DNA of 22,597 nt from a virus (taxonomy: Duplodnaviria > Heunggongvirae > Uroviricota > Caudoviricetes), in the IMG/VR virus record IMGVR_UViG_2874933748_000003; one strand, 5' to 3'. The notes under the pieces are model-generated. The model was not told the DNA's origin, did no database searches, and was given only the letters and a program-made list of their open reading frames with translations. The translations under genes and the position numbers were made by a program. Within the stretch, counting starts at the first letter, position 1, and each line of letters starts with the position of its first letter. Positions 3,694 to 17,783 of the stretch are shown piece by piece.

Positions 3694-4509
3694 GTGTCAG
3701 GTATTTGGTGTATCCGGAGCGGTTATTACAACTGGGTACAGCATGAACCCTCAGACAGAAAACAAAGTGATGAGCGGCTAAAACTGGAGATTAAGGTGGC
3801 ACATATCCGCACTCGCGAAACATATGGAACCCGGCGGCTCCAGACGGAGCTGGCAGAGAATGGCATCATCGTTGGTCGTGACCGACTGGCACGTCTTCGT
3901 AAGGAGCTAAGGCTACGCTGTAAGCAGAAACGCAAGTTCAGAGCGACTACGAACTCGAACCACAATCTGCCAGTTGCGCCAAATCTGCTGAACCAGACGT
4001 TCGCTCCTACAGCACCAAATCAGGTCTGGGTGGCGGACCTGACGTATGTTGCCACACAGGAGGGATGGTTGTACCTCGCTGGCATCAAAGATGTTTATAC
4101 GTGCGAAATTGTCGGCTACGCCATGGGAGAGCGCATGACAAAAGAGCTGACAGGTAAAGCCCTGTTTATGGCGCTCAGGAGCCAGCGCCCACCTGCCGGG
4201 CTAATCCACCACTCTGATCGAGGTTCACAGTACTGCGCATACGATTACCGGGTCATACAGGAGCAGTCTGGTCTGAAAACATCAATGTCGCGTAAAGGTA
4301 ACTGTTACGACAACGCTCCGATGGAAAGCTTCTGGGGAACGCTGAAAAATGAGAGCCTGAGCCACTATCGTTTTAATAACCGGGATGAAGCCATCTCAGT
4401 AATACGGGAATACATTGAGATTTTCTACAATCGTCAGCGTCGTCACTCTCGTCTGGGGAATATCTCCCCGGCAGCCTTCAGGGAAAAATATCATCAGATG
4501 GCTGCTTAA
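3694..4509 (+). CDS. IS600 OrfB transposase (DDE/integrase core), the only unbroken orfB in the window
   Basis: 271-aa ORF; both halves match the split orfB frames of copies A, D and E. Confidence 0.85.
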   Translation: MSGIWCIRSGYYNWVQHEPSDRKQSDERLKLEIKVAHIRTRETYGTRRLQTELAENGIIVGRDRLARLRKELRLRCKQKRKFRATTNSNHNLPVAPNLLNQTFAPTAPNQVWVADLTYVATQEGWLYLAGIKDVYTCEIVGYAMGERMTKELTGKALFMALRSQRPPAGLIHHSDRGSQYCAYDYRVIQEQSGLKTSMSRKGNCYDNAPMESFWGTLKNESLSHYRFNNRDEAISVIREYIEIFYNRQRRHSRLGNISPAAFREKYHQMAA

Positions 4510-12769: not shown

Positions 12770-13057
12770 ATGAGCAGAAAAACCCAACGTTACTCTAAAG
12801 AGTTCAAAGCCGAAGCTGTCAGAACGGTTCTTGAAAATCAACTTTCGATCAGTGAAGGCGCTTCCCGATTATCTCTTCCTGAAGGCACTTTAGGACAATG
12901 GGTTACCGCCGCCAGAAAAGGGCTCGGTACTCCTGGTTCCCGCACGGTGGCTGAACTGGAATCTGAAATTCTGCAACTGCGTAAGGCGTTAAATGAAGCT
13001 CGCCTTGAGCGAGATATATTAAAAAAGCAACAGCGTATTTTGCACAGGAGTCGCTGA
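12770..13057 (+). pseudogene. IS600 orfA with altered C-terminus (6-A tract)
   Basis: 95-aa ORF ending ...RDILKKQQRILHRSR; A-tract is one base shorter than in copy C. Confidence 0.7.
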
Positions 13058-13108
13058 AAAATACGCGTTAATCGAACAATGGCGACAACAATTTCCCATT
13101 GAAGCGAT

Positions 13109-13923
13109 GTGTCAGGTATTTGGTGTATCCGGGGCGGTTATTACAACTGGGTACAGCATGAACCCTCAGACAGAAAACAAAGTGATGAGCGGCTAAAACT
13201 GGAGATTAAGGTGGCACATATCCGCACTCGCGAAACATATGGAACCCGGCGGCTCCAGACGGAGCTGGCAGAGAATGGCATCATCGTTGGTCGTGACCGA
13301 CTGGCACGTCTTCGTAAGGAGCTAAGGCTACGCTGTAAGCAGAAACGCAAGTTCAGAGCGACTACGAACTCGAACCACAATCTGCCAGTTGCGCCAAATC
13401 TGCTGAACCAGACGTTCGCTCCTACAGCACCAAATCAGGTCTGGGTGGCGGACCTGACGTATGTTGCCACACAGGAGGGATGGTTGTACCTCGCTGGCAT
13501 CAAAGATGTTTATACGTGCGAAATTGTCGGCTACGCCATGGGAGAGCGCATGACAAAGAGCTGACAGGTAAAGCCCTGTTTATGGCGCTCAGGAGCCAGC
13601 GCCCACCTGCCGGGCTAATCCACCACTCTGATCGAGGTTCACAGTACTGCGCATACGATTACCGGGTCATACAGGAGCAGTCTGGTCTGAAAACATCAAT
13701 GTCGCGTAAAGGTAACTGTTACGACAACGCTCCGATGGAAAGCTTCTGGGGAACGCTGAAAAATGAGAGCCTGAGCCACTATCGTTTTAATAACCGGGAT
13801 GAAGCCATCTCAGTAATACGGGAATACATTGAGATTTTCTACAATCGTCAGCGTCGTCACTCTCGTCTGGGGAATATCTCCCCGGCAGCCTTCAGGGAAA
13901 AATATCATCAGATGGCTGCTTAA
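13109..13923 (+). pseudogene. IS600 orfB, frameshifted (ORFs 13109-13564 and 13480-13923)
   Basis: GACAAAGAGCTGAC has 3 A where the intact copy B has 4. Confidence 0.75.
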
Positions 13924-14016
13924 AAAAAGAACAAATGGTAGTGTCCGCTATTGCCAGTACACCTCACACTCTATCCAACAAACCACCCACAGTTAATCGG
14001 AATAAAAGCAGAGTGC

Positions 14017-14089
14017 TTATGAATGATCGCACGCCCGAAGGTTAGTATTTCTGCACAGCAATTTTGCAAAAAAAGGCGATCATTCATAA
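14017..14089. repeat. Perfect 14-bp inverted repeat TTATGAATGATCGC / GCGATCATTCATAA with a 45-bp spacer
   Basis: Arms at 14017-14030 and 14076-14089, in the 180-bp stub between the tRNA cluster and IS600 copy D. Confidence 0.6.
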
Positions 14090-14148
14090 CTTAAACGTCT
14101 TTCAGTCACTCCGGGATTTCCCATCATCGCAGACTGAAAGACTCTGAC

Positions 14149-14223
<75 letters not shown>

Positions 14224-14226
14224 ATA

Positions 14227-14302
<76 letters not shown>

Positions 14303-14304
14303 GC

Positions 14305-14381
14305 TGGCCCACCACCGAGGACTCGAACCTCGCACCGTCAACTTAGAAGGTTGATGCTCTATCCGGATGAGCTAGTGGTGG
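14305..14381 (-). tRNA. tRNA-Arg (anticodon UCU), with an unusual C1-G72 start to the acceptor stem
   Basis: Reverse complement CCACCACTAGCTCATCCGGATAGAGCATCAACCTTCTAAGTTGACGGTGCGAGGTTCGAGTCCTCGGTGGTGGGCCA; anticodon stem TCAAC/GTTGA, loop CTTCTAA. Confidence 0.8.
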
Positions 14382-14382
14382 T

Positions 14383-14459
14383 TGGTGGCCCTTGCTGGAC
14401 TTGAACCAGCGACCTGGCGATTATGAGTCGCTCGCTCTGACCAACTGAGCTAAAGGGCC
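14383..14459 (-). tRNA. tRNA with anticodon CAU, probably Ile2 (lysidine) type rather than elongator Met
   Basis: Reverse complement GGCCCTTTAGCTCAGTTGGTCAGAGCGAGCGACTCATAATCGCCAGGTCGCTGGTTCAAGTCCAGCAAGGGCCACCA; anticodon arm GCGACTCATAATCGC resembles E. coli ileX-type tRNAs as I recall them. Confidence 0.8.
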
Positions 14460-14546
14460 GGAGGCAGAATAATAACCATATGTCATCACATCTGCAAACT
14501 CATCTGACCACCAGCACGTTTAACGTCCTGTGCCGTTTTTCAGGTA

Positions 14547-14570
14547 TAAAAAAACCCGCATAAAGCGGGC
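14547..14570 (-). terminator. Strong intrinsic terminator between the Q-like gene and the tRNA cluster (candidate tR-prime)
   Basis: Minus strand reads GCCCGC-TTTAT-GCGGG followed by TTTTTTTATACC, about 80 nt downstream of the Q stop codon. Confidence 0.65.
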
Positions 14571-14648
14571 TCTTTCAAATGTCCATGTCTGCTATTCGCC
14601 TCGCGGTACAGCTTTGCGAAGCGTACAAGAATTGAAGCAGTTTTTACG

Positions 14649-15203
14649 TCAAAAAGCAATAACTTTTTTCTCTATACCAAAAGCCATAACCATTGGTTTG
14701 TACAAAATAAATTCTGCCACCTTTAGCCAATGCTCAATGCGTCTTTCACAGGTTCTTAAACTCCATTTCGGGTGTGCATCATTCAGCAGTTCAGCCATTT
14801 TGCGTTTGGTCATCCCCCGCCCCTCATACCGTTGCCGAAGGACGCTAATCAATCCTGGATGCTCTGCCAGCACCTCACTTATGACCCGATCAATACATAA
14901 CGCCTCTGCATCAGTACAATGCGCCAGCCAGCTCTTTTGCTTACCGTTAATCATATCCCGCAAAAAAGCCTCAAGTTCAGACTTGTTCAGACCTGCTTTT
15001 TTCATCCTCCGGAGCGCCTCGTTAATTGCCGTTTTTGTCAGCTTTTTAGAGGTCAACATCAGGTTAAACATATTCCCCGTCTTACCGCCACCAATATACG
15101 ACCAGCGCCCCCACATACGTAGTTTTCCCTGAATCCAGACACTTTCCAGCGTGGTGAGACGAAGGTGTTCTCCGCTTTTTCCTGTATTCGTTGGGTAAAT
15201 CAT
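14649..15203 (-). CDS. Late-gene antiterminator Q-like protein (QuuD/phage-82 type)
   Basis: ATG at 15203 preceded by AAGGAGGG; W-G-x-W motif near the N-terminus (LRMWGRWSY); position just upstream of a terminator and tRNAs; start overlaps the stop of the upstream gene (ATGA). Confidence 0.6.
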   Translation of the reverse strand: MIYPTNTGKSGEHLRLTTLESVWIQGKLRMWGRWSYIGGGKTGNMFNLMLTSKKLTKTAINEALRRMKKAGLNKSELEAFLRDMINGKQKSWLAHCTDAEALCIDRVISEVLAEHPGLISVLRQRYEGRGMTKRKMAELLNDAHPKWSLRTCERRIEHWLKVAEFILYKPMVMAFGIEKKVIAF

Positions 15204-15490
15204 AAATATCCCTCCTTTCTCCAGATTTCTTGTGTGCGAAAAACACCTTCTGCATGCATCAGGCGTAATTCTTCTTTGGTGTAATCGCTGGTTTTTACCC
15301 GCCCGTCGATTAAATCGTGGCACGAGCTACAGGCAATCGCTGCCTGCATATCGTGTGGCTTTATCGCTGTTCCGCACGTTCCCGCCAGTCGGTAATGCGC
15401 CAGCACAGACGTTTCCGGATCGTGATTGCAGTAGCCAGGAATTCTGACGGTGCACATCTGCCCCCGCGCCGCTTTACGTAAATCCACCAT
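15200..15490 (-). CDS. YbcO-like small Cys/His-rich protein (DUF1364-type) of the nin region
   Basis: 96-aa ORF with Cys/His cluster (CTVRIPGYCNHD ... CSSCHDL); translationally coupled to flanking genes (TAATG upstream, ATGA downstream). Confidence 0.5.
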   Translation of the reverse strand: MVDLRKAARGQMCTVRIPGYCNHDPETSVLAHYRLAGTCGTAIKPHDMQAAIACSSCHDLIDGRVKTSDYTKEELRLMHAEGVFRTQEIWRKEGYL

Positions 15491-16373: not shown

Positions 16374-16479
16374 GATGCCTCCAGGTTTATAAGTACAAAC
16401 GGTTATATCAACATAGAGACAAAAGGTGATGCTGCCAACTTACTGATTTAGTGTATGATCGTGTTTTTGAGGTGCTCCA

Positions 16480-16755
16480 GTGGCTTCTGTTTCTATCAGC
16501 TGTCCCTCCTGTTCAGCTACTGACGGGGTGGTGCGTAACGGCAAAAGCACTGCCGGACATCAGCGCTATCTCTGCTCTCACTGCCGTAAAACATGGCAAC
16601 TGCAGTTCACTTACACCGCTTCCCAACCCGGTACGCACCAGAAAATCATTGATATGGCCATGAATGGCGTTGGATGCCGGGCAACTGCACGCATTATGGG
16701 CGTTGGCCTCAACACGATTTTACGTCACTTAAAAAACTCAGGCCGCAGTCGGTAA
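16480..16755 (+). CDS. insA: IS1 InsA
   Basis: 91-aa [46 protein letters not shown]. Confidence 0.9.
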
Positions 16756-17177
16756 CCTCGCGCATACAGCCGGGCAGTGACGTCATCGTCTGCGCGGAAA
16801 TGGACGAACAGTGGGGCTATGTCGGGGCTAAATCGCGCCAGCGCTGGCTGTTTTACGCGTATGACAGTCTCCGGAAGACGGTTGTTGCGCACGTATTCGG
16901 TGAACGCACTATGGCGACGCTGGGGCGTCTTATGAGCCTGCTGTCACCCTTTGACGTGGTGATATGGATGACGGATGGCTGGCCGCTGTATGAATCCCGC
17001 CTGAAGGGAAAGCTGCACGTAATCAGCAAGCGATATACGCAGCGAATTGAGCGGCATAACCTGAATCTGAGGCAGCACCTGGCACGGCTGGGACGGAAGT
17101 CGCTGTCGTTCTCAAAATCGGTGGAGCTGCATGACAAAGTCATCGGGCATTATCTGAACATAAAACACTATCAATAA
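16674..17177 (+). CDS. insB: IS1 InsB frame (expressed as the InsAB-prime fusion by frameshifting)
   Basis: 167-aa ORF overlapping insA in the minus-one frame. Confidence 0.9.
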
Positions 17178-17284: not shown

Positions 17285-17440
17285 TTACTCTCTAGATTCG
17301 TAGTCTACGAAAACAGCGACCTCCGTCTGGCCGATTCGGATTCGTACCTCGCAGAGGTCTTTCCTCGTTACCAGTGCCGTCACAATGACGGTTAAACAGA
17401 TGACGATCAGGGCGATTAACATCGCCTTTTGCTGCTTCAT
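17285..17440 (-). CDS. hok: Hok/Gef family membrane toxin (HokD/RelF-like)
   Basis: MKQQKAMLIALIVICLTVIVTALVTRKDLCEVRIRIGQTEVAVFVDYESRE; ATG at 17440 preceded by AAGGAG; a GGCGGGA/TCCCGCC stem-loop lies just 3-prime of the stop. Confidence 0.85.
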   Translation of the reverse strand: MKQQKAMLIALIVICLTVIVTALVTRKDLCEVRIRIGQTEVAVFVDYESRE

Positions 17441-17783
17441 AGCCTGCTTCTCCTTGCCTTTCGGCACGTAAGAGGCTAACCTACATTTGTGAGACATAGA
17501 TTGGGCCTCAGATTAATGTTAAGCGTCTTGCAGGACGCGTAATGTTAACTGGGGCTTTTCTCTGTCTGCCTTACAGTGACATACCCGAGGCAGACAGCCT
17601 CAAGCACCCGCAGCAATCTTACCGACACCGATAAGAAAACGCTATTTTTTATTGCCAGCACCATCTATCCAGGCTAGTTTATCTGCGTCAGAACGGCGCA
17701 ATGCGCTCGCCTGAGATACGTTTACTTGCCATGGTAACAACAGGTAACGGCAATTGCTGTTTCTGTTTTGTTTCCTTCAAAAA

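What the first reader, a model, noticed from the sequence alone, without database searches (positions are those of the whole stretch)
14017..14089. Perfect 14-bp inverted repeat in the stub where a late moron promoter would be expected
TTATGAATGATCGC and its exact reverse complement are separated by 45 bp containing TTTTGCAAAAAAAGG. The element sits in the only unique sequence left between the tRNA cluster and IS600 copy D. It could be a long RNA stem-loop in the late transcript, a regulator operator pair, or the ends of a tiny mobile element.
Basis: seen in the sequence. Interest (0 to 1): 0.4.

Follow-up and report, generated by a model that had tools for sequence, protein, structure and literature searches.

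The report
Conserved RNA hairpin behind phage tRNAs
The perfect 14-bp inverted repeat is real and is the basal stem of the middle hairpin of an unannotated, roughly 190-nucleotide three-hairpin RNA that many lambda-like prophages of E. coli and its relatives carry right after their tRNA genes, upstream of the lysis genes; what it does is not known.

Summary
TTATGAATGATCGC (14017-14030) and its exact reverse complement (14076-14089) lie 45 nt apart. About 0.02 such repeats are expected per randomised window.

It is not an operator pair, a tiny mobile element, a terminator or a small gene. It is helix P2 of hairpin H2. H2 is the middle domain of a three-hairpin structured RNA (H1 14097-14142, H2 14017-14089, H3 13967-14016) read on the minus strand, which is the phage late strand.

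The order is Q antiterminator, late promoter and tR', four tRNAs, then this element. In intact relatives an intrinsic terminator and the holin gene follow. Here the IS element has removed them.

The element occurs in 536 of 5426 complete E. coli genomes, and in Shigella, Enterobacter, Phytobacter and Yokenella prophages and phage HK639. It is never annotated there and matches no Rfam family. Stems covary, and one-sided changes are G-U type on the late strand only (272 G-U against 11 on the other strand). The hairpins are shuffled as modules between phages.

My best reading is an RNA processing and stability module of the tRNA trailer and late-operon leader. The RNA structure is shown; the function is inferred. 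It is of moderate interest as an undescribed phage RNA motif.

The parts
14076..14089 (-). 5' arm of helix P2 of hairpin H2 on the late-strand RNA (UUAUGAAUGAUCGC). This is the right arm of the reported repeat.
   Evidence: It is paired in the consensus structures of A1 and A2.
14017..14030 (-). 3' arm of helix P2 of H2 (GCGAUCAUUCAUAA). This is the left arm of the reported repeat.
14017..14089 (-). Hairpin H2, a three-way-junction domain. It comprises P2 (14 bp); P2a (14065-14072 paired with 14048-14055, 8 bp, with the 9-nt loop AAAUUGCUG at 14056-14064); and a small P2b hairpin CC-UUCG-GG (14034-14041).
   Evidence: MFE and centroid folds. RNAalifold on 37 and on 24 sequences. Pair counts: P2 92.5% paired, P2a 96.8% paired, against 32-57% for slid controls.
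14097..14142 (-). Hairpin H1. It has an 11-bp perfect basal stem plus 2 further pairs, an asymmetric internal loop (5 + 2 nt) that looks like a box C/D-type kink-turn (bulge G14128 A14127 U14126; G14125.A14110; A14124.G14111), and a 4-bp cap with a tetraloop.
   Evidence: The internal-loop residues are invariant or nearly invariant in A1. The kink-turn reading is my inference from the sequence pattern.
13967..14016 (-). Hairpin H3: an 8-bp basal stem, a 7-nt bulge, 5 bp, a 2x2 internal loop, 4 bp and the hexaloop GUGGGU. It contains the conserved GGGUGGUUUGUUGG. Its last closing base is lost at the IS junction.
   Evidence: The basal stem has 3 pairs with compensatory changes. H3 also occurs alone in other phages.
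13958..14151 (-). The whole three-hairpin element as matched by covariance model R1 (219.7 bits). The last few model positions run into the IS.
14149..14459 (-). Phage tRNA cluster directly upstream on the late strand: tRNA(CAU) called Met by ARAGORN and Ile in RefSeq, then Arg(UCU), Thr(UGU) and Gly(UCC). H1 starts 6 nt after the tRNA-Gly CCA end.
14548..14570 (-). Intrinsic terminator (GCCCGC-UUUAU-GCGGG plus a U run). By position it is tR', ending the short transcript from the late promoter downstream of Q.
   Evidence: Sequence. Weak leader- and isrK-like Rfam matches at 14546-14633. The assignment as tR' is inferred from position.
14649..15323 (-). Q-type late antiterminator gene (DUF1133 / Phage_antitermQ).
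12770..13966 (+). Its end at 13966 replaces the terminator, the holin and the rest of the late region that follow H3 in intact relatives.
   Evidence: The junction is seen by comparing the window with phage 689R5.

Best explanation
The inverted repeat is the basal helix (P2) of the middle hairpin of a conserved structured RNA of about 190 nt with three hairpins. It is encoded on the minus strand as the 3' trailer of the prophage tRNA cluster, inside the Q-dependent late-operon leader.

Shown:
- The repeat is exact and not expected by chance.
- Its arms pair in a structure kept by compensatory and G-U changes across diverged lambdoid phages.
- The pairing only works on the late strand.
- The element starts within a few nucleotides of a tRNA 3' end.
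- In intact phages it is followed by an intrinsic terminator and then the holin gene.
- It is neither coding, nor a terminator, nor a dispersed repeat.

Inferred mechanism:
- After induction, Q-modified RNA polymerase reads through tR' and transcribes the tRNAs and the element. In lysogens, read-through of tR' or a weak promoter in front of the tRNAs may give low expression.
- Excision of the tRNAs by RNase P and RNase E leaves the element as the new 5' end of the downstream RNA, or as a separate fragment ending at the terminator.
- Its long helices act as a processing and stability module. P2 of 14 bp can stack on P2a of 8 bp or on the abutting 8-bp H3 stem, giving about two helical turns. 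The helices would mark where the tRNA part is separated from the lysis mRNA (RNase III and/or RNase E) and would shield the new ends from exonucleases and from 5'-end-dependent RNase E attack.

I put about 0.85 on the structured-RNA part and about 0.35-0.4 on the processing/stability mechanism.
For: Repeat and chance:
- The repeat is exact and expected 0.02 times per window.

Fold:
- The late strand folds to -61.4 kcal/mol, z = -4.1.

Conservation:
- 536 of 5426 complete E. coli genomes, 580 places, all chromosomal, no annotated feature.
- Phages 689R5, PhiR47_1, 606R7 and phi467 at about 97% identity, and HK639 at 75%.
- Shigella, Enterobacter hormaechei, Phytobacter and Yokenella.

Structure:
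- In A1, 98.3% of 2144 cells pair, against 37-46% for slid controls. Eight pairs have changes on both sides.
- In a non-redundant H2 set, P2 is 92.5% paired, with UA/AU, AU/GU/GC and GC/UA/AU exchanges. RNAalifold recovers P2 and P2a on its own, with 7 compensatory pairs.

Strand:
- 272 G-U and 37 non-pairs on the late strand, against 11 G-U and 298 non-pairs on the other strand.

Context:
- Q, tR', tRNAs, element.
- Intact relatives continue with a terminator and the holin.
- Of 62 distinct full elements, 52 have a tRNA 3' end within 15 nt upstream and at least 39 have a terminator within 100 nt downstream.

The helix seems to be the conserved feature:
- Diverged versions after H1 in L288 and L257 keep a long stem but have a different interior.

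The element is an island of similarity in a mosaic:
- It sits next to at least five Q genes of different length (window 224 aa, 689R5, HK639, L123, L124, CFSAN029787). Only the window's Q was put through a family search. It also sits next to different lysis genes.
Against: No expression, end-mapping or cleavage data exist for this element, so nothing here shows processing.
- P2 alone (14 bp) is short for RNase III. The two-turn helix needs coaxial stacking, which I cannot test.
- Simple stabiliser hairpins would not need the near-invariant internal loop of H1 or the conserved core of H3. Those features point to a specific partner.
- The terminator that follows the element is not explained by a role in stabilising the lysis mRNA.
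- Covariation comes mainly from two clades plus a few intermediates, so the number of independent events is small.
- Part of the loop invariance in A1 is an artefact of how sequences were collected, by exact 14-17-mer patterns.
Confidence: 0.55

Rival explanations
1. The element is a trans-acting stable RNA. Once released between the tRNA 3' end and the downstream terminator, it accumulates and acts on the host. It could be a decoy or sponge for a host protein (an RNase, Hfq, ProQ or a defence sensor) or a base-pairing regulator that uses its conserved loops.
For: - The unit tRNA end, three hairpins, A/U-rich linker, intrinsic terminator with U tail is self-contained. It resembles RNAs released from stable-RNA operon trailers.
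- The H1 internal loop and the H3 core are nearly invariant while the stems covary.
- It is independent of the neighbouring phage proteins, which fits a host partner.
- The Q-to-holin interval is a known home of prophage sRNAs such as the Pas sRNAs.
- E. coli rrn operons carry sRNA genes between dual terminators, made by read-through (PMC8144298, listed, abstract only).
Against: - Solo H3 copies in L228, L224 and L274 sit in 5' leaders 20-45 nt before a start codon with no terminator in between, which looks cis-acting.
- In L070 the element lies between tRNA genes rather than at the end of the unit.
- The conserved G/U-rich stretch of H3 is mostly base-paired, not a free seed.
- No conserved complementary target turned up in the two phage genomes scanned. 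Host genomes could not be scanned.
Confidence: 0.25
2. The element is a cis-regulatory leader that controls transcription into the lysis genes. It would be a riboswitch or attenuator working with the terminator behind it, or a polymerase-modifying antiterminator RNA like put of HK022.
For: - A structured domain followed within 13-40 nt by an intrinsic terminator and then a gene is the classic attenuator layout.
- It lies in a promoter-proximal operon leader, as put RNAs do.
- H3 alone is found just after tR' and in a 5' UTR.
- HK639 has four terminators in this leader.
Against: - These phages encode Q, which already makes the polymerase terminator-resistant.
- I saw no conserved alternative pairing between the element and the terminator stem when reading. 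The terminators differ in sequence between clades.
- Model R1 finds nothing in the HK022 early region where the put sites lie (best 7.4 bits, E = 0.74, in the late leader).
- Read by eye, there is no resemblance to the HK022 putR region or to the putL-like RNA annotated in HK639.
- No Rfam riboswitch or leader matches the element.
Confidence: 0.1
3. The hairpins have no function of their own. They would be passenger sequence that travels with the tRNA cassette and is kept only by recent common descent.
For: - Most copies in E. coli are 95-99% identical, so much of the apparent conservation is shallow.
- Modules are lost or swapped freely.
- The window's own prophage is defective, yet the element is intact.
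Against: - Pairing is kept at 75% identity through changes on both sides and through G-U changes on one strand only.
- The flanks outside the element and the tRNA do not align between clades.
- The modules show no significant similarity to the neighbouring tRNAs.
Confidence: 0.07
4. It is a DNA-level element: a pair of operator half-sites for a regulator, a cruciform or single-strand DNA hairpin signal, or the terminal inverted repeats of a miniature transposable element.
For: - The repeat is perfect in this window.
- G-T mismatches are also tolerated in single-stranded DNA hairpins, so the strand asymmetry alone does not exclude a single-strand DNA role.
Against: - In 13 of 24 non-redundant relatives the arms carry an A.C mismatch plus G-U pairs, so the duplex DNA is not palindromic there.
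- The arm centres are 59 bp apart.
- No regulator gene co-varies with the element.
- There are 1-3 copies per genome, always in one context. The hairpin alone gives the same 580 places as the full element.
- There are no plasmid copies in E. coli, and only one Salmonella plasmid match at 79%.
- No target duplication is visible.
Confidence: 0.03

Closest known systems
RNase III processing hairpins of phage polycistronic transcripts (T7 early and late sites such as R1.1; lambda N-leader and sib). From my own knowledge.
   Same: They are long imperfect helices with internal loops, placed between functional units of a long phage transcript. They work on the sense RNA, and after cleavage they leave protective hairpins at the new ends.
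   Different: No cleavage has been shown here. P2 is 14 bp and reaches two helical turns only by stacking. H2 is a three-way junction. H1 and H3 have conserved loops that RNase III sites do not need.
Small stable RNAs co-transcribed with phage tRNA clusters (T4 species 1 and species 2 RNAs). From my own knowledge.
   Same: They are structured RNAs of 100-200 nt encoded in a phage tRNA cluster and released by the tRNA-processing machinery. Their function is still unknown.
   Different: T4 is a virulent phage with a different transcription programme. Sequence or structure similarity was not tested here because no T4 RNA model was available.
GOLLD and ROOL RNAs (PMC5737381)
   Same: They are structured non-coding RNAs of unknown function, often next to tRNA genes and in prophages.
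   Different: They are 3-4 times larger, with many multistem junctions and pseudoknots, and occur mostly in other phyla. Rfam models for them did not match the window.
RNAs derived from stable-RNA operon trailers (3'ETS-leuZ, from my own knowledge; the rrA/rrB/rrF sRNAs between the dual terminators of rrn operons, PMC8144298, listed, abstract only)
   Same: The RNA lies between the last stable RNA gene and an intrinsic terminator. It is made as a by-product of an antiterminated or read-through transcript.
   Different: Those RNAs are short and act, or are proposed to act, through Hfq or CsrA binding. This element is a large, mostly base-paired three-domain fold.
put antiterminator RNAs of HK022 and HK639 (PMC9378689; HK639 annotation)
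   Same: They are cis-encoded structured RNAs in a lambdoid operon leader, upstream of terminators.
   Different: put RNAs are about 70 nt with two stems, lie in the early operons, and replace a protein antiterminator. This element lies in the late leader of phages that have Q. It shows no similarity to the HK022 putR region or HK639 putL-like sequences read here.
Prophage sRNAs of the Q-to-holin interval (PasA/PasC, PasD/STnc100, EcOnc RNAs)
   Same: They occupy the same genomic neighbourhood in lambdoid prophages.
   Different: PasA is antisense to the late strand, and the stretches of PasA and PasD printed in the paper's supplement are unrelated. STnc100, AgvB, AsxR and Esr41 models did not match.

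Membership tests
Intrinsic (Rho-independent) terminator | A G+C-rich hairpin with a short loop, followed at once by a U run. | tested here: not met
   The terminator scan finds none in 13900-15400. P2 encloses 45 nt. On the late strand the first U-rich stretch starts 9 nt after the stem, inside H3. The real terminator lies after H3 in intact relatives.
Miniature transposable element / IS terminal inverted repeats | Multiple dispersed copies in unrelated contexts, with target-site duplications at the ends. | tested here: not met
   There are 1-3 copies per genome, and 580 places identical for the hairpin alone and for the whole element. No flanking duplication is visible.
Operator pair / palindromic protein-binding site | The two half-sites are conserved as a DNA palindrome and linked to a cognate regulator gene. 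| tested here: not met
   The arms are non-palindromic in 13 of 24 relatives (an A.C mismatch plus G-U type changes). The neighbouring genes vary.
Structured non-coding RNA element (general) | Base pairs are maintained by compensatory and wobble changes, with strand specificity and no coding signal. | tested here: met
   The overlapping 38-codon ORF shifts frame among near-identical copies.
Any Rfam 15 family | A score at or above the family's gathering threshold. | tested here: not met
   Only tRNAs and sok pass in the window. Nothing covers H2 or H3 even at E <= 10; the one overlap with the element is a 12-bit C/D-box snoRNA match (sR38, 14078-14134, E = 4.4) across H1 and the edge of H2. 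Nothing in loci with solo H3 or diverged H2.
put-type polymerase-binding antiterminator RNA | Two-stem RNA of about 70 nt similar to HK022 putL/putR. | tested here: not met
   Model R1 finds nothing in the HK022 early region. Reading the HK022 putR region and the HK639 putL-like sequence shows no resemblance.
put-type polymerase-binding antiterminator RNA | Promotes terminator read-through by binding the beta' zinc-binding domain. | not testable with these tools
   This needs in vitro transcription or reporter assays.
RNase III processing site | About two helical turns of double-stranded RNA. | tested here: inconclusive
   P2 has 14 bp (up to 16 in the HK639 clade). P2 + P2a or P2 + the H3 stem reach 22 bp only if stacked. 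Diverged versions have 16-20 bp with a 2x2 loop.
RNase III processing site | Cleavage by RNase III in vivo or in vitro. | not testable with these tools
   No data. This needs rnc mutants or purified enzyme.
Hfq-dependent sRNA | A terminator hairpin with a U tail preceded by an A/U-rich single strand. | tested here: inconclusive
   This is present in intact relatives but deleted in this window by the IS. It is absent after some solo H3 copies.
Hfq-dependent sRNA | An accessible conserved seed and identified targets. | tested here: inconclusive
   Conserved stretches are mostly paired. No conserved target was found in two phage genomes. Host genomes were not scanned.
Kink-turn (for hairpin H1 only) | A C stem, a 3-nt bulge, then tandem sheared G.A and A.G pairs. 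| tested here: inconclusive
   The sequence pattern fits: C-G, bulge GAU, then GA opposite GA. These residues are invariant or nearly so in A1. Variants keep GA...GA (GAAGAAGGG and GAGGAAGGG). A weak C/D-box snoRNA match of 12 bits lies here. The three-dimensional geometry cannot be tested.

The most novel reading that the evidence does not exclude
The three hairpins form a compact, specifically recognised RNA: a kink-turn in H1, a three-way junction in H2 and a conserved G-rich hairpin in H3. This would be a new class of phage-encoded functional RNA. It would be made in large amounts from the late promoter together with the tRNAs, and would bind and redirect a host factor such as an RNase, a tRNA-targeting defence nuclease or the translation machinery. 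That would make it an enterobacterial counterpart of the unexplained tRNA-linked phage RNAs (T4 species 1/2, GOLLD, ROOL).
Probability: 0.2. Interest if true: 0.75.

Novelty: new member of a known kind. Interest (0 to 1): 0.45.

Why it matters
About one in ten complete E. coli genomes carries this element, as do Shigella and other enterobacteria. It sits in the most strongly transcribed leader of their lambdoid prophages, yet no record annotates it and no Rfam family covers it.

If it directs how phage tRNAs are cut away from the lysis and structural mRNA, it adds a missing step to the lambdoid late programme. That programme also drives toxin genes in related phages. If instead it is a stable RNA that acts on the host, it would be a new phage-host interface.

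Either way it gives a tractable E. coli model for the old question of why phages place structured RNAs of unknown function next to their tRNA genes. For genome annotation, covariance model R1 could flag the element and mark the Q-to-holin leader.

Tried and rejected
- Rfam at gathering and at permissive thresholds, on the window and on five related loci. Only tRNAs, sok and chance-level hits appeared.
- Full-text search for six conserved words of the element, as DNA and as RNA. No paper holds any of them.
- Pas sRNAs of the Q-to-holin region. PasA is on the other strand, and the printed stretches of PasA and PasD are unrelated.
- HK022 and HK639 put RNAs. No similarity by model search or by reading the HK022 putR region and HK639 putL-like sequences.
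- Small protein. A 38-codon ORF starts in the 5' arm, but run-length changes in the poly-U shift its frame among near-identical copies, giving peptides of 10 to more than 38 residues in three frames.
- Antisense targets of the conserved loops within phages 689R5 and HK639. Only the trivial self-complement scored, and nothing was shared between the two genomes.
- Origin of the hairpins from the neighbouring tRNAs. A shared GAUGAUG between H1 and tRNA-Gly is not significant (p = 0.18; all pairs p >= 0.08).
- Terminator, operator and miniature-transposon readings. These are rejected as set out in the membership table.
- Promoter in the stub. None was predicted there. The only promoter-like site near the tRNA cluster lies upstream of it, at 14469-14498.

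Full report
**1. The observation**

The window has TTATGAATGATCGC at 14017-14030 and its exact reverse complement at 14076-14089, with 45 nt between them. The spacer contains TTTTGCAAAAAAAGG at 14062-14076. With up to two mismatches, the 14-mer occurs nowhere else in the window.

First-order Markov randomisations of the window gave on average 0.02 perfect 14-nt inverted repeats with a gap of at most 100 nt. One is observed. A second perfect repeat of 11 nt lies beside it, at 14097-14107 / 14132-14142.

**2. Where it sits**

- All four tRNA genes (14149-14459) are on the minus strand.
- Upstream of them on that strand lie a Q-type antiterminator gene (14649-15323; DUF1133 / Phage_antitermQ) and a short region that ends in an intrinsic terminator (14548-14570). 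By position this terminator is tR' of the late promoter.
- To the left, an IS3-family element ends at 13966. Beyond it come tail genes.
- In intact relatives the order on the late strand is: Q, tRNAs, the sequence equivalent to 13967-14148, an intrinsic terminator, then the holin gene (phage 689R5; E. coli CFSAN029787).

The stub is therefore the 3' trailer of the phage tRNA cluster and part of the leader of the lysis genes. The IS has removed the terminator and everything up to the tail genes.

**3. What it is**

The late-strand RNA of 13967-14148 folds into three hairpins, at -61.4 kcal/mol with a z-score of -4.1:

- H1 (14097-14142).
- H2 (14017-14089). Its basal 14-bp helix P2 is the reported repeat. 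Inside P2 lie an 8-bp helix P2a with a 9-nt loop and a small CC-UUCG-GG hairpin.
- H3 (13967-14016).

The same sequence occurs as follows:

- In 536 of 5426 complete E. coli genomes, at 580 places, always chromosomal and never annotated.
- In four sequenced coliphages at about 97% identity, and in phage HK639 at 75%.
- In Shigella flexneri, Enterobacter hormaechei, Phytobacter ursingii and Yokenella regensburgei.

An alignment of 37 distinct full-length copies gives a consensus structure of 58 pairs. In it, 98.3% of cells form standard pairs, against 37-46% when the partners are slid by 1-3 columns. Eight pairs show changes on both sides.

A non-redundant set of 24 H2 sequences gives 92.5% pairing for P2. 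Exchanges include UA/AU, AU/GU/GC and GC/UA/AU. RNAalifold recovers P2 and P2a without guidance, with seven compensatory pairs.

The repeat is perfect only in the window's clade. In the HK639 clade P2 has a conserved A.C mismatch and G-U pairs.

Over the whole structure the late strand has 272 G-U pairs and 37 non-pairs. The complementary strand would have 11 G-U pairs and 298 non-pairs. The structure therefore belongs to the transcript of the late strand. A covariance model built from the alignment scores the window at 219.7 bits over 13958-14151.

**4. Modularity and context**

The hairpins are exchanged as modules. Among distinct instances I counted:

| Arrangement | Distinct instances |
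|---|---|
| H1-H2-H3 | 62 |
| H2-H3 | 18 |
| H1-H2 | 7 |
| H3 alone | 8 |
| H1 alone | 5 |

- Of the 62 full elements, 52 have a tRNA 3' end within 15 nt upstream. The tRNA is Gly, Met, Glu or Ser in different phages.
- At least 39 of the 62 have an intrinsic terminator within 100 nt downstream.
- H3 alone is found just after tR' in other Q-to-holin leaders. It is also found in the 5' untranslated region of a gene whose product begins MKVYIAGPMTN.
- Diverged versions of H2 keep a long stem after H1 but have a different interior.
- The element sits next to Q genes of at least five different lengths and to different lysis cassettes. Between clades, similarity stops at the borders of the tRNA and the element. 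It is a conserved island in a mosaic.

**5. What it is not**

- **Terminator:** none is predicted, and no U run follows P2 directly.
- **Small gene:** the 38-codon ORF that starts in the 5' arm shifts frame among near-identical copies.
- **Miniature transposon:** the copies are few, always in the same context, identical for hairpin and whole element, and without target duplications. One Salmonella plasmid has a 79% match.
- **Operator pair:** the arms are not a DNA palindrome in half of the relatives, and no regulator travels with them.
- **Known RNA family:** no Rfam family matches, even at permissive thresholds.
- **Pas sRNA:** it is not one of the Pas sRNAs that occupy the same neighbourhood.
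- **put RNA:** it is not like the HK022 putR region or the HK639 putL-like RNA. The carefully annotated HK639 record marks a putL-like RNA, an M3-like RNA and four terminators in this leader, but nothing on the element itself.
- **Literature:** no paper in the library contains its conserved words.

**6. How it most likely works**

The steps shown are the structure, the strand, the position, the conservation and the exclusions above. The rest is inference.

After induction, Q-modified polymerase reads through tR' and transcribes the tRNAs and the element. In lysogens, leak-through of tR' could give low expression. So could a promoter-like site just upstream of the first tRNA (TTTGCA-18-TATTAT, 14469-14498, with a counterpart in 689R5). 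HK639 has no room for such a promoter.

Removal of the tRNAs by RNase P and RNase E would leave the element at the new 5' end of the downstream RNA, or as a separate fragment ending at the terminator. Three observations shape my reading:

- The hairpins abut tRNA ends.
- The long helix persists even when its interior is replaced.
- P2 can stack on P2a or on the directly adjoining H3 stem, to reach about two helical turns.

From these, my best reading is a processing and stability module. It would mark the cut between the tRNA part and the lysis mRNA, and would protect the resulting ends. This is what RNase III hairpins do in T7 and lambda transcripts (my own knowledge). I give this about 0.35-0.4.

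The near-invariant internal loop of H1 and the conserved core of H3 are not explained by that model. The H1 loop fits a box C/D-type kink-turn pattern. These features keep alive a trans-acting or protein-binding stable RNA (about 0.25). A cis-acting attenuator or antiterminator gets about 0.1, passenger sequence about 0.07, and a DNA-level role about 0.03.

**7. Comparison with known systems, and novelty**

The closest analogues in kind are:

- RNase III processing hairpins of phage transcripts.
- The small stable RNAs of the T4 tRNA cluster.
- The tRNA-adjacent prophage RNAs GOLLD and ROOL (PMC5737381).
- RNAs released from stable-RNA operon trailers (PMC8144298, seen only as an abstract).

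Membership in any named family was either tested and not met or could not be tested. I therefore file it as a new member of a known kind: a phage-encoded structured RNA linked to tRNA genes and the late leader.

**8. Limits**

- There are no expression or cleavage data.
- Homologues were gathered by exact 14-17-mer patterns, which inflates loop invariance and limits divergence.
- The covariation rests mainly on two clades plus intermediates.
- E-values from the short-calibrated model are rough.
- Host genomes could not be scanned for targets.

**Verdict**

The repeat is one helix of a larger, widespread and so far undescribed RNA element whose function remains to be shown.

Noticed in passing
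window 14097-14142 (minus strand): Hairpin H1 next to the finding has an 11-bp perfect stem. Its invariant asymmetric internal loop fits a box C/D-like kink-turn pattern (AUGAUGG opposite CGGA; bulge GAU; tandem G.A and A.G). Rfam gives a chance-level C/D snoRNA match here (12 bits).
   Followed up: partly
L274 5584-5671, L252 3147-3301, L271 4845-5033; L228 1944-2051, L224 4847-4954, L270 4418-4527, L257 12557-12663, L267 2267-2361: An H3-like hairpin with the core GGGGUGGUUUGUUGGGU and freely covarying closing stems occurs on its own in other phages. In some it lies just after tR' in Q-to-holin leaders. In others it lies in the 5' untranslated region of a gene whose product begins MKVYIAGPMTN. 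It may be an independent RNA motif.
   Followed up: partly
window 17435-17609 (minus strand): There is a full-length sok antitoxin RNA (Rfam RF01794, 118 bits), so a hok/sok-type toxin-antitoxin locus lies in the prophage early region.
   Followed up: no
window 14469-14498 (minus strand); L001 4501-4529: A sigma-70-like promoter match (TTTGCA-18-TATTAT, 9 of 12) ends about 10 nt before the first tRNA. A similar site lies at the same place in phage 689R5. If active, the tRNAs plus the element plus the terminator would form a self-contained unit expressed in lysogens. HK639 has no room for it.
   Followed up: partly
window 14383-14459 (minus strand): ARAGORN calls the first tRNA Met (CAU), but RefSeq annotates the identical gene in CFSAN029787 as tRNA-Ile. 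With Arg(UCU), Thr(UGU) and Gly(UCC), the cluster would then read the rare A-ending codons AUA, AGA, ACA and GGA.
   Followed up: partly
window 14546-14633 (minus strand); L228 2021-2086: The short region between Q and the tRNAs ends in a strong terminator. It gives weak matches to leader RNAs and to isrK (about 20-25 bits, below threshold), as expected for a short late-promoter transcript like lambda 6S or StxS.
   Followed up: no
window 13109-13923 and 21249-22063, compared with 3694-4509: Two IS3-family copies have their second transposase ORF split into overlapping pieces of 151 and 147 codons. A third copy has one ORF of 271 codons. So two copies seem to share the same frame disruption.
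   Followed up: no
window 16451-17177 and 19967-20693: Two stretches carry identical sets of ORF lengths (70, 91, 167 and 96 codons). From my own knowledge, 91 and 167 codons fit insA and insB of IS1. This was not checked with any tool.
   Followed up: no
L123 2673-3098; L004, L029, L069, L087 upstream of H2: In L123, RefSeq annotates a small HNH endonuclease gene between the tRNA and the element. In L004, L029, L069 and L087 different sequence abuts H2 and the 5' arm of P2 is altered (TTTTTGCGTGAGCGC) but still pairs; whether a gene lies there was not checked. If homing endonuclease genes are involved, they may use this conserved RNA gene as a landing site.
   Followed up: no
window 14068-14074; L141, L148, L149, L166 downstream terminators: Run lengths vary among near-identical copies. 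The poly-U at the H2 junction has 6 to 9 U. The terminator after H3 is shortened in some E. coli and Shigella copies (GCCCGCTTTTGCGTTTTTTT and GCCCGCTTTTGCGGTTTTTT), which weakens its stem.
   Followed up: no
L002 4190-4250 (HK639): In HK639 the element is preceded only by the 3' two-thirds of a tRNA-Gly(UCC) gene. ARAGORN finds no intact tRNA-Gly there, so the element is kept although its usual tRNA neighbour is truncated.
   Followed up: partly
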